The notes beneath the pieces were generated by a model. It worked only from the letters and a program-made list of their open reading frames with translations. It had not been told where the DNA came from and made no database searches. Positions 46,335-46,900 of a stretch of 64,000 nt of DNA are shown here, in pieces. How positions within the stretch are numbered: position 1 is the stretch's first letter; the number at the start of each line of letters is the position of its first letter. Position numbers and translations under genes: made by a program. Source of the DNA: a virus (Duplodnaviria > Caudoviricetes); the IMG/VR virus record IMGVR_UViG_3300044842_000325, positions 64,847 to 128,846 of that record; one strand, given 5' to 3'.

Positions 46335-46900
46335 ATGACTACCGGGCTGGGTATAAAGGTAGCGGCAGAGTCGCTACCAATGAGGAGATCCCGGACCCCT
46401 CTAGGTACGGTTGCCCATACCTAATAATTACGTTGCCTGATGAGGACCAGCGCCCCCGTACTTCTCACTGGAATGTTTCAGACAACGTAATGCAGTTAGC
46501 CGATAAAGTCGACGGGACTCGAACCCGCAAGTCTTTCGACCACATCCGCGGAGCACAATCAGTTGTTTTGCAGACCGCAGTCCTTCAACTGTCGACAACA
46601 CTCCACTTTGATCCGTTTACCAATTTGGGCACGACTTCACGGACTAACTGTTTTCTACGACCCGAAGCGGGCTGTTGATGACTGGGAGGGATCATGGCGC
46701 ACTACCAGCTCAGGGTTTATTGCACGCATGTCGCGACAGCGACTCACAGGACAGCGTTTTGCCCCCAACCAAGTTCCCAAGCGGCACAGCCATTGGCGAC
46801 TTGTTTCACTCAGTTGATTTCTTTGTGGCGGGCACGTAGCTAAATCACAAGGTGTGCCTGGTAGCGGCTTGTGATTTGACTAGGCTCGTGCCGGCCGGCG
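46335..46900 (-). ncRNA. Putative large multi-stem ncRNA (~570 nt) containing a tRNA-like domain
   Basis: No credible ORF. Successive stems at about 46358-46378, 46402-46423, 46427-46491, 46493-46650 and 46831-46892. Confidence 0.5.
46504..46638 (-). ncRNA. tRNA-Leu-like element with the anticodon arm replaced by a long hairpin
   Basis: Acceptor GAAGTCG/CGACTTT + A, D-loop AAATTGGTAAA, variable arm GTC-GAAA-GAC, T-arm GCGGG-TTCGAGT-CCCGT. About 50 extra nt at the anticodon position; no encoded CCA. Confidence 0.7.

What the first reader, a model, noticed from the sequence alone, without database searches (positions are those of the whole stretch)
46504..46638. tRNA-Leu mimic with no anticodon arm
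Seen on the minus strand: a 7-bp acceptor stem, U8, G18G19 D-loop, A15 and U48, a class II variable arm with a GAAA loop, a canonical T-arm and discriminator A. The D-stem has one mismatch and CCA is not encoded. In place of the 17-nt anticodon arm there is a ~69-nt interrupted hairpin (GTGGAGTG/TGCTCCGC, CAGTTG/CAACTG, GGAC/GTCT). Known: bacterial LeuRS relies on A73, the A15-U48 pair and elbow architecture rather than the anticodon, and RNase P and the CCA-adding enzyme read the acceptor/T-arm. Inference: an RNA that could be processed and leucylated but cannot decode. It could act as a decoy for anticodon nucleases or other tRNA-sensing defences, a processing signal, or a tRNA with an unusual short intron. 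The paired insert argues against simple decay.
Basis: partly seen in the sequence, partly recalled or inferred. Interest (0 to 1): 0.85.

Follow-up and report, generated by a model that had tools for sequence, protein, structure and literature searches.

The report
Anticodon-less tRNA-Leu-like phage RNA module
A soil jumbo phage carries a gene shaped like the upper body of a leucine tRNA, with a long hairpin where the codon-reading arm should be; it sits on a 19-base-pair stalk inside a larger folded RNA and belongs to a poorly understood kind of phage tRNA look-alike (phage T5 RNA1 is the annotated example) whose job is unknown.

Summary
Window 46504-46638 (minus strand) has a 7-bp acceptor stem, U8, a leucine-type D-loop, a GAAA-capped variable hairpin, a canonical T-arm and A73. 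A 69-nt irregular hairpin replaces the anticodon arm. This frame is expected about 0.01 times per shuffled genome. ARAGORN and Rfam do not call it a tRNA.

New points:
- **Stalk:** the flanks lengthen the acceptor stem to a 19-bp stalk.
- **Indel:** the 169-nt cassette (46492-46660) is missing from the closest relative and replaced by 36 other bases in another. A third relative has a different tRNA-like gene in the same linker.
- **Setting:** the cassette lies between two conserved, covarying domains of a ~620-nt minus-strand RNA that ends in an intrinsic terminator.
- **Ancestry:** its 3' half is 29/35 identical to a real phage tRNA-Leu(GAG).
- **Closest known:** its architecture matches phage T5 RNA1, annotated as a 'tRNA-like stable RNA with unknown functions' and absent from Rfam.

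It cannot decode, and I found no support for an intron. The best reading is a non-decoding tRNA-chassis RNA; a recently disabled tRNA is the main rival.

This scan has already noted many anticodon-less tRNA-Leu-like RNAs in other phages. Those are unchecked AI notes, and I used them only as leads.

The parts
46504..46638 (-). tRNA-Leu-like core, 135 nt, with no anticodon loop
46632..46638 (-). acceptor stem 5' strand GAAGUCG; pairs with 46505-46511
46613..46631 (-). U8, G9 and the D-arm: CCC / AAAUUGGUAAA / CGG. Leucine-type D-loop; the stem has one C.C mismatch. 16/19 identical to the same stretch of phage T5 RNA1
46544..46612 (-). 69-nt irregular hairpin in place of the 17-nt anticodon arm. 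Only 3 bp of the old stem remain (AUC/GAU)
46531..46540 (-). class II variable hairpin GUC-GAAA-GAC
46512..46528 (-). T-arm GCGGG-UUCGAGU-CCCGU
46504..46511 (-). acceptor stem 3' strand CGACUUU plus discriminator A; no CCA follows
46639..46650 (-). 5' strand of the stalk extension. It pairs with 46493-46504 and lengthens the acceptor helix to 19 pairs with one mismatch
46493..46503 (-). 3' strand of the stalk extension
46492..46660 (-). 169-nt cassette (stalk plus tRNA-like core). Absent from relative L003; replaced by 36 other bases in a relative seen in runs X4 and X6. MFE -60.3 kcal/mol, z -3.9
46661..46905 (-). conserved structured 5' domain of the enclosing RNA. It starts right after the stop codon of the 165-aa minus-strand gene (46906-47403)
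46340..46491 (-). conserved structured 3' domain: 37 pairs, all kept in L003, 6 of them with changes on both sides
46285..46336 (-). GC-rich hairpins followed by a U-run: intrinsic-terminator-like end of the minus-strand RNA

Best explanation
**What it is.** This is a non-decoding RNA module derived from a class II tRNA-Leu. It keeps the acceptor stem, the D/T elbow, the variable hairpin and A73, and carries a 69-nt hairpin where the anticodon arm was. That is the architecture of phage T5 RNA1.

**Where it sits.** It is transcribed on the minus strand as part of a ~620-nt highly structured RNA. That RNA follows the prohead-protease / 185-aa / 165-aa gene block and ends at an intrinsic terminator. 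The module stands on a 19-bp stalk in the variable linker between the RNA's two conserved domains.

**Inferred, not shown:**
- The stalk is opened or cut, possibly by RNase III.
- RNase P and 3' trimming free the body.
- CCA is added. Complete relatives encode their own CCA-adding enzyme.
- The result is a stable ~135-nt RNA.
- The tRNA body supplies processing, stability and perhaps charging. The biological effect would come either from the carried hairpin or from occupying a factor that binds the tRNA upper body.

It does not read codons.
For: - **The tRNA frame is real and rare by chance**.
- **Leucine ancestry**.
- **Same plan as T5 RNA1:** a leucine-type D-arm (16/19 identical), a long irregular hairpin in the anticodon position, a variable hairpin and a T-arm.
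- **The stalk is not part of any tRNA gene.** It has 11 of 12 extra pairs, and the whole cassette folds with z -3.9, with 0 of 200 shuffles as stable.
- **The enclosing RNA is structured on the minus strand.** It folds to -255.8 kcal/mol (z -5.9) on the minus strand against -218.8 (z -1.6) on the plus strand. Several helices hold G-U pairs that would be C-A on the other strand. Compensatory changes are present. A terminator lies on that strand.
- **Relatives carry comparable elements.** They hold other tRNA-like genes with an intact upper body and a remodelled lower half, either in the same linker (L006) or in the next intergenic gap of the same gene block (L004, Rfam tRNA 36.4 bits). Their tRNA clusters hold several more.
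- **A CCA-adding enzyme** is encoded in both complete relatives.
Against: - There are no RNA data for this element. The RNA-library contigs come from a relative that lacks it.
- It is dispensable: two close relatives lack it.
- It is single-copy and has no sequence homologue, so neither the carried hairpin nor the stalk can be tested by covariation.
- The carried hairpin is no more stable than chance.
- The D-stem has a mismatch.
- A paired leader and trailer is, to my knowledge, unfavourable for RNase P.
- The intact upper bodies of the relatives' elements were partly selected by my own descriptor, so there is ascertainment bias.
Confidence: 0.5

Rival explanations
1. It is a recently disabled tRNA-Leu gene. 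A working tRNA landed in a tolerant linker of the intergenic RNA, and a roughly 60-nt insertion then destroyed its anticodon loop. The intact arms reflect recency, not selection. It is neutral cargo on its way out.
For: It varies in presence among close relatives. It is single-copy with no homologue. The D-stem has a mismatch and the acceptor starts with G1.U72. The insert hairpin's stability is at chance level. The 3' half is still 29/35 identical to a real tRNA-Leu.
Against: The 12 extra stalk pairs are not explained by a tRNA origin. At least three independent elements at this locus, and more in the relatives' tRNA clusters, show the same asymmetry of an intact upper body and a rebuilt lower half. 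The same plan is seen in T5 RNA1, which is annotated as a stable RNA.
Confidence: 0.3
2. It is a cis-acting part of the long RNA. The tRNA shape would serve only as a cleavage or punctuation signal, or as a nuclease-resistant block, that separates or stabilises the two domains or the 3' end of the upstream operon mRNA. No free tRNA-like RNA would have a job of its own.
For: It lies between two conserved domains of one terminator-ended transcript unit. In L004 the tRNA-like gene lies between two protein genes of the same block.
Against: Two relatives keep both domains without it, so the long RNA does not need it.
Confidence: 0.12
3. It is a decoding tRNA with an unusual short intron that is spliced out.
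For: Short, unexplained 'introns' have been reported in tRNAs of Lak megaphages (PMC6784885). With the intron option, ARAGORN proposes introns of 34-89 nt for the elongated tRNA-like genes in the relatives' clusters, some of them artefacts.
Against: No excision of the hairpin leaves a 5-bp stem with a 7-nt loop holding U33. ARAGORN with the intron option finds nothing at its default threshold. In-silico excision of every possible segment gave only calls with mismatched stems and inconsistent anticodons. No group I intron family matched in Rfam. RtcB, the tRNA-intron endonuclease and Rnl2 are absent from five genomes.
Confidence: 0.04
4. It is a Y-RNA-like tether: a long stem formed by the two ends plus a tRNA-like domain, as in Deinococcus Yrn1, binding a Ro60 protein.
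For: The general shape is a long closing stem with a tRNA-like head. Yrn1 has the same orientation of arms, according to PMC4201824.
Against: Neither YrlA nor the Y RNA family matches here, even at E-value 10. No TROVE/Ro60 gene is present in five genomes.
Confidence: 0.03

Closest known systems
Phage T5 RNA1 (GenBank AY543070, 30501-30644, annotated 'tRNA-like stable RNA with unknown functions')
   Same: Leucine-type D-arm (16/19 identical over U8 to position 26). A long irregular hairpin in the anticodon position. A class II variable hairpin, a T-arm and a closing acceptor stem. Length 144 against 135 nt. Neither RNA1 nor RNA2 matches any Rfam family at gathering score.
   Different: T5 RNA1 lies inside the tRNA cluster, not on a stalk inside a larger structured RNA. 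Its carried hairpin is unrelated in sequence. My strict D-arm-to-T-loop pattern recovered 11 loci, most on contigs of 104-122 kb, including T5's own record, which I take to be T5-like phages. Common descent is therefore not shown.
Phage T4 rnaC (species 1 RNA, 139 nt)
   Same: A small stable RNA of unknown function with a canonical T-arm and a closing stem, the rest made of hairpins.
   Different: No leucine-type D-arm is recognisable. It lies inside the tRNA cluster.
Class II tRNA-Leu, for example tRNA-Leu(GAG) of Xanthomonas phage BUDD
   Same: D-loop, 3' strand of the anticodon stem, GAAA-type variable hairpin, T-arm and A73. 29/35 identical in the 3' half.
   Different: No anticodon loop. 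Only 3 of the 5 anticodon-stem pairs remain. No CCA is encoded. The acceptor stem is extended by flanking sequence.
GOLLD RNA with tRNAs in its linker (bioRxiv 10.1101/2024.12.08.627333)
   Same: A large structured phage RNA of two parts whose linker sometimes holds a tRNA.
   Different: No Rfam match to GOLLD or ROOL. The enclosing RNA here is shorter and so far known from three genomes only. The embedded unit is not a decoding tRNA.
tmRNA
   Same: A tRNA-like acceptor and T domain with a long helix in place of the anticodon stem.
   Different: No tag reading frame and no G3.U70. ARAGORN's tmRNA search finds nothing. Rfam gives 11.6 bits against a cut-off of 47, over the T-arm only. A real D-stem is present.
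YrlA / bacterial Y RNAs (PMC4201824)
   Same: A non-decoding RNA with a tRNA-like domain that tRNA enzymes can recognise.
   Different: YrlA is circularly permuted (T-arm, closed acceptor stem, D-arm) and pairs with Ro60. Neither holds here.

Membership tests
Canonical tRNA (Rfam RF00005) | 7-bp acceptor stem and a 5-bp T-stem with a UUCRANY loop | tested here: met
Canonical tRNA (Rfam RF00005) | 5-bp anticodon stem with a 7-nt loop holding U33 and an anticodon | tested here: not met
   a 69-nt hairpin stands in its place, and no 7-nt loop with U33 occurs anywhere in it
Canonical tRNA (Rfam RF00005) | score at or above the family cut-off, or an ARAGORN call | tested here: not met
   12.8 bits against 29; 0 genes from ARAGORN
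Intron-bearing tRNA (group I or bulge-helix-bulge type) | a ribozyme core or a bulge-helix-bulge motif at the insert | tested here: not met
   no Rfam intron family matched; the internal loops are 3x1 nt, not two 3-nt bulges 4 bp apart
Intron-bearing tRNA (group I or bulge-helix-bulge type) | splicing enzymes available from the phage | tested here: not met
   RtcB, tRNA_int_endo and Rnl2 are absent from 5 related genomes; host enzymes were not testable
T5 RNA1-type tRNA-like stable RNA | a tRNA-Leu-type upper body with a long hairpin in the anticodon position and a variable hairpin | tested here: met
T5 RNA1-type tRNA-like stable RNA | accumulates as a stable processed RNA | not testable with these tools
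   no RNA run holds this element
T5 RNA1-type tRNA-like stable RNA | sequence homology beyond the generic tRNA-Leu parts | tested here: not met
   the carried hairpins do not align; the strict pattern recovered mainly T5-sized contigs, including T5's own record
tmRNA | tag reading frame, pseudoknots and alanine identity (G3.U70) | tested here: not met
YrlA / Y RNA | permuted tRNA-like domain, Ro-binding stem and a Ro60 partner | tested here: not met
GOLLD / ROOL (for the enclosing 620-nt RNA) | match to the family model | tested here: not met

The most novel reading that the evidence does not exclude
Phages use the tRNA upper body as a natural scaffold that is processed, stabilised and possibly charged. 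On it they display exchangeable RNA cargo, or use it to soak up a host factor that senses tRNA bodies. Here one such module is plugged on a stalk into the variable linker of an undescribed ~620-nt ornate phage RNA, the same layout as tRNAs in the GOLLD linker. That would tie the two unexplained phage RNA classes together.
Probability: 0.2. Interest if true: 0.8.

Novelty: new variant of a known kind. Interest (0 to 1): 0.55.

Why it matters
tRNA-shaped stable RNAs of unknown function have been annotated in phages T4 and T5 for decades, yet they have no Rfam family and no known mechanism. This case shows the same body plan in a distant nucleus-forming-type (phiKZ-like) jumbo phage from soil. 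It lies outside the tRNA cluster, mounted on a stalk in the variable linker of a larger folded RNA. Different tRNA-like units occupy that place in relatives.

If these modules work as processed scaffolds or as decoys, they would be a general phage tool acting on the host's tRNA machinery or on tRNA-sensing defences. They would also be a natural counterpart of engineered tRNA scaffolds (my knowledge, not checked here).

On its own, an uncultured single-copy instance cannot settle the function.

Tried and rejected
- **Standard finders.** ARAGORN (default, intron and tmRNA modes) and Rfam at gathering score found nothing in the window.
- **In-silico excision.** I removed every possible segment and re-ran ARAGORN. 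The test proved too permissive to discriminate: many calls, poor stems and inconsistent anticodons, in this element and in the controls.
- **Multi-copy mobile element with terminal inverted repeats.** There is no second copy in five genomes.
- **Target-site duplication.** In L004 the 7-nt repeat GTAGTAC flanks the element, but L005 shows the downstream copy belongs to a conserved gene-upstream region, so I dropped it.
- **The 1034-aa minus-strand ORF 43006-46110 as a neighbour gene.** It is a shadow frame of the plus-strand tail sheath and virion protein genes.
- **More relatives.** Protein-anchored scans of viral and metagenome contigs gave only four close relatives and one or two distant ones. 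A 17-mer from the 5' domain also returned two unrelated contigs by chance.
- **The 5' domain in the more distant relatives.** Model R1 did not find it in G002 or G003.
- **RNA evidence.** Four root metatranscriptome runs hold contigs of a ~88-90% identical relative that lacks the module. These are contigs and may include DNA, so they say nothing about expression or splicing of this element. The 46491/46656 joint carries 36 replacement bases, so it is a DNA variant and not a splice.
- **Neighbouring proteins.** The 165-aa and 185-aa proteins have no informative Pfam or PDB match.
- **Antisense targets of the carried hairpin.** Complementary matches within the phage genomes are at chance level only.
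- **A broader pattern scan for leucine-type D-loops with long gaps.** I judged it too unspecific to run.

Full report
**Context.** The window is part of a 128.8-kb, roughly half-complete virus record. It encodes a phiKZ-type prohead protease (Peptidase_S80, 48213-49016, minus strand). It also encodes a tail sheath (43081-45168, plus strand) and a virion structural protein (45235-46122, plus strand). The nearest cultured relatives are jumbo phages of Ralstonia, Burkholderia and Xanthomonas, at about 30-35% amino-acid identity. The 1034-aa minus-strand ORF over the sheath genes is a shadow frame. The finding lies in a 783-nt gap between the plus-strand virion gene and the minus-strand block of protease, 185-aa and 165-aa genes (46906-47403). 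It is on the same strand as that block.

**The observation.**
- a 7-bp acceptor stem, with G1.U72 a wobble pair;
- U8, A14, A15 and U48, G18G19, A21;
- a GAAA-capped variable hairpin;
- the T-arm GCGGG-UUCGAGU-CCCGU;
- discriminator A with no CCA;
- a 69-nt irregular hairpin (46544-46612) where the 17-nt anticodon arm should be.

The D-stem has two pairs and a C.C mismatch. Standard tools do not call it: ARAGORN finds none, with or without introns, and the Rfam tRNA model gives 12.8 bits against a cut-off of 29. The frame is nevertheless not chance. A simple descriptor hits it once in the record, against a mean of 0.01 in 100 dinucleotide shuffles. Over about 1 Mb of related genomes, 19 of the descriptor's 20 hits are tRNA genes or tRNA-like elements.

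**Ancestry.** The D-loop (AAAUUGGUAAAC) is the bacterial tRNA-Leu type. The 3' half is 29/35 identical to the tRNA-Leu(GAG) of Xanthomonas phage BUDD. It covers the 3' strand of the anticodon stem (GGAUG), the variable hairpin and the T-arm. Only three pairs of the old anticodon stem survive. The hairpin replaces the rest of the stem and the loop. Nothing in it offers a 7-nt loop with U33, so the RNA cannot decode.

- **A stalk.** Twelve bases on each side (46639-46650 and 46493-46504) pair and extend the acceptor helix to 19 pairs with one mismatch. The 169-nt unit folds to -60.3 kcal/mol, z -3.9. The carried hairpin alone is unremarkable, z -1.7.
- **A clean indel.** The closest relative (L003, 90% identity in the neighbouring protein) lacks exactly 46492-46660. 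Contigs of another relative, found in two RNA-library runs of one study, carry 36 unrelated bases between 46491 and 46656. A third relative (L006, 89%) has a different tRNA-like gene of 155 nt in the same linker, with a Ser/Tyr-type D-loop and discriminator U.
- **A second position.** A fourth relative (L004, 77%) has yet another tRNA-like gene, in the next intergenic gap of the same gene block. It is 132 nt and scores 36.4 bits on the Rfam tRNA model, with 75 bases between the D-arm and the T-arm region.
- **Structured flanks.** The 3' domain (46340-46491) has 37 predicted pairs, all kept in L003, six of them by changes on both sides. Slid controls pair only 27-43% of cells. The 5' domain (46661-46905) shows further compensatory changes among three genomes.
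- **Strand.** Several conserved pairs are G-U, which fits only the minus strand. The whole 621 nt folds to -255.8 kcal/mol (z -5.9) on the minus strand, against -218.8 (z -1.6) on the plus strand. In that fold the stalked module stands as its own branch. A hairpin plus U-run terminator closes the unit on the minus strand.
- **No known family.** No Rfam family matches any part, even at E-value 10. A model of the 5' domain finds it once each in the window's genome, G001 and G004, and nowhere else.

**The wider repertoire.** The relatives' tRNA clusters hold normal tRNAs mixed with elongated ones of 115-155 nt. In these, the upper body is intact and the anticodon region carries 34-85 extra bases. 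Two of them, in different tRNA bodies, share a homologous three-hairpin insert with compensatory changes. One outer tRNA frame encloses a permuted tRNA-like unit that scores 31 bits on the YrlA model, below its cut-off of 69. The cultured Burkholderia phage FLC9 has similar unannotated genes. Both complete relatives encode a CCA-adding-type nucleotidyltransferase. None of the five genomes encodes RtcB, a tRNA-intron endonuclease, an Rnl2 ligase or Ro60.

**Comparison with what is known.** The closest described object is phage T5 RNA1. Its D-arm is 16/19 identical to this one. It likewise has a long irregular hairpin in the anticodon position, a variable hairpin, a T-arm and a closing acceptor stem. 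GenBank labels it a tRNA-like stable RNA of unknown function. Rfam 15 has no family for it or for T5 RNA2. T4 rnaC is a looser analogue. The layout of a tRNA unit in the linker of a two-part large phage RNA recalls GOLLD, whose linker sometimes holds tRNAs. No sequence or model match supports membership. Lak megaphages have unexplained short inserts in tRNAs, one of which may itself encode a tRNA.

Earlier notes of this scan describe many anticodon-less tRNA-Leu-like RNAs with exchangeable inserts in other phages. They are unchecked AI notes. I used them as leads to T5 and T4 and verified only those two comparisons.

**Reading.**
- The element is almost certainly not a decoder (about 0.9) and very probably not intron-bearing.
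- I favour a non-decoding tRNA-chassis module of the T5 RNA1 kind, excised from the long RNA by tRNA-processing enzymes (0.5). My reasons are the stalk, the recurrence of 'intact top, rebuilt bottom' units at this locus and in the clusters, and the annotated T5 precedent.
- The main rival is a recently disabled tRNA-Leu sitting in a tolerant linker (0.3). The module is dispensable, single-copy and without homologues, and its carried hairpin shows no sign of selection.
- A purely cis role as a processing or stabilising element is possible (0.12).
- Processing, CCA addition, charging and any decoy role are inferences. A decoy for anticodon nucleases in particular is unlikely, because the loop they read is missing.
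- Leucine identity is not conserved among the units that occupy this locus in relatives. This argues against charging with leucine as the selected property.

Noticed in passing
window 46285-46905 (minus strand): About 620 nt of terminator-ended, strongly structured non-coding RNA (z -5.9). Two of its domains covary with L003 and L006. No Rfam match. Known so far from three genomes only. It may be an undescribed large phage RNA in its own right.
   Followed up: partly
L024:1725-1851 (G003 190954-191080) and L025:1888-2022 (G004 162827-961): Two different tRNA bodies in the relatives' tRNA clusters carry a homologous three-hairpin insert of 54-62 nt in the anticodon loop, with compensatory changes in one hairpin. 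The insert looks like a transferable or conserved module.
   Followed up: partly
L025:1594-1750 (G004); homologue at L020:1408-1559 (G001): An outer tRNA frame whose anticodon region encloses a circularly permuted tRNA-like unit (T-arm, closed stem, D-arm). It scores 31.3 bits on the YrlA model (cut-off 69). No Ro60 gene is present in these phages. It recalls the 'tRNA inside a tRNA intron' reported for Lak phages.
   Followed up: partly
L093:1434-1940 (Burkholderia phage FLC9, LC667451 about 128900-129400): An unannotated 500-nt gap in the tRNA cluster of a cultured jumbo phage holds several tRNA-like pieces. One has a leucine-type D-arm joined almost directly to a T-arm. Another has about 50 extra bases inside its anticodon stem. 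This could serve as an experimental system.
   Followed up: no
L004:6046-6177 (minus strand): A tRNA-like gene between two protein genes of the protease block. One of its hairpins could open to a 7-nt loop GUUAAUC (anticodon UAA), but it would lie about 50 nt away from the D-arm.
   Followed up: no
window 43006-46110 (minus strand): A 1034-aa open frame antisense to the tail sheath and virion protein genes. tblastn even matches the antisense frames of relatives. It is a shadow ORF, not a gene.
   Followed up: yes
L095 (phage T5, AY543070 40848-41566): T5 'RNAX', an annotated 719-nt stable RNA of unknown function, directly abuts tRNA-Arg and contains an internal 38-bit tRNA match. This is another large phage RNA joined to tRNA units.
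   Followed up: no
G004 186073-186450 and G003 212628-212978: Both complete relatives encode a 415-421-aa nucleotidyltransferase of the CCA-adding / poly(A) polymerase family.
   Followed up: no
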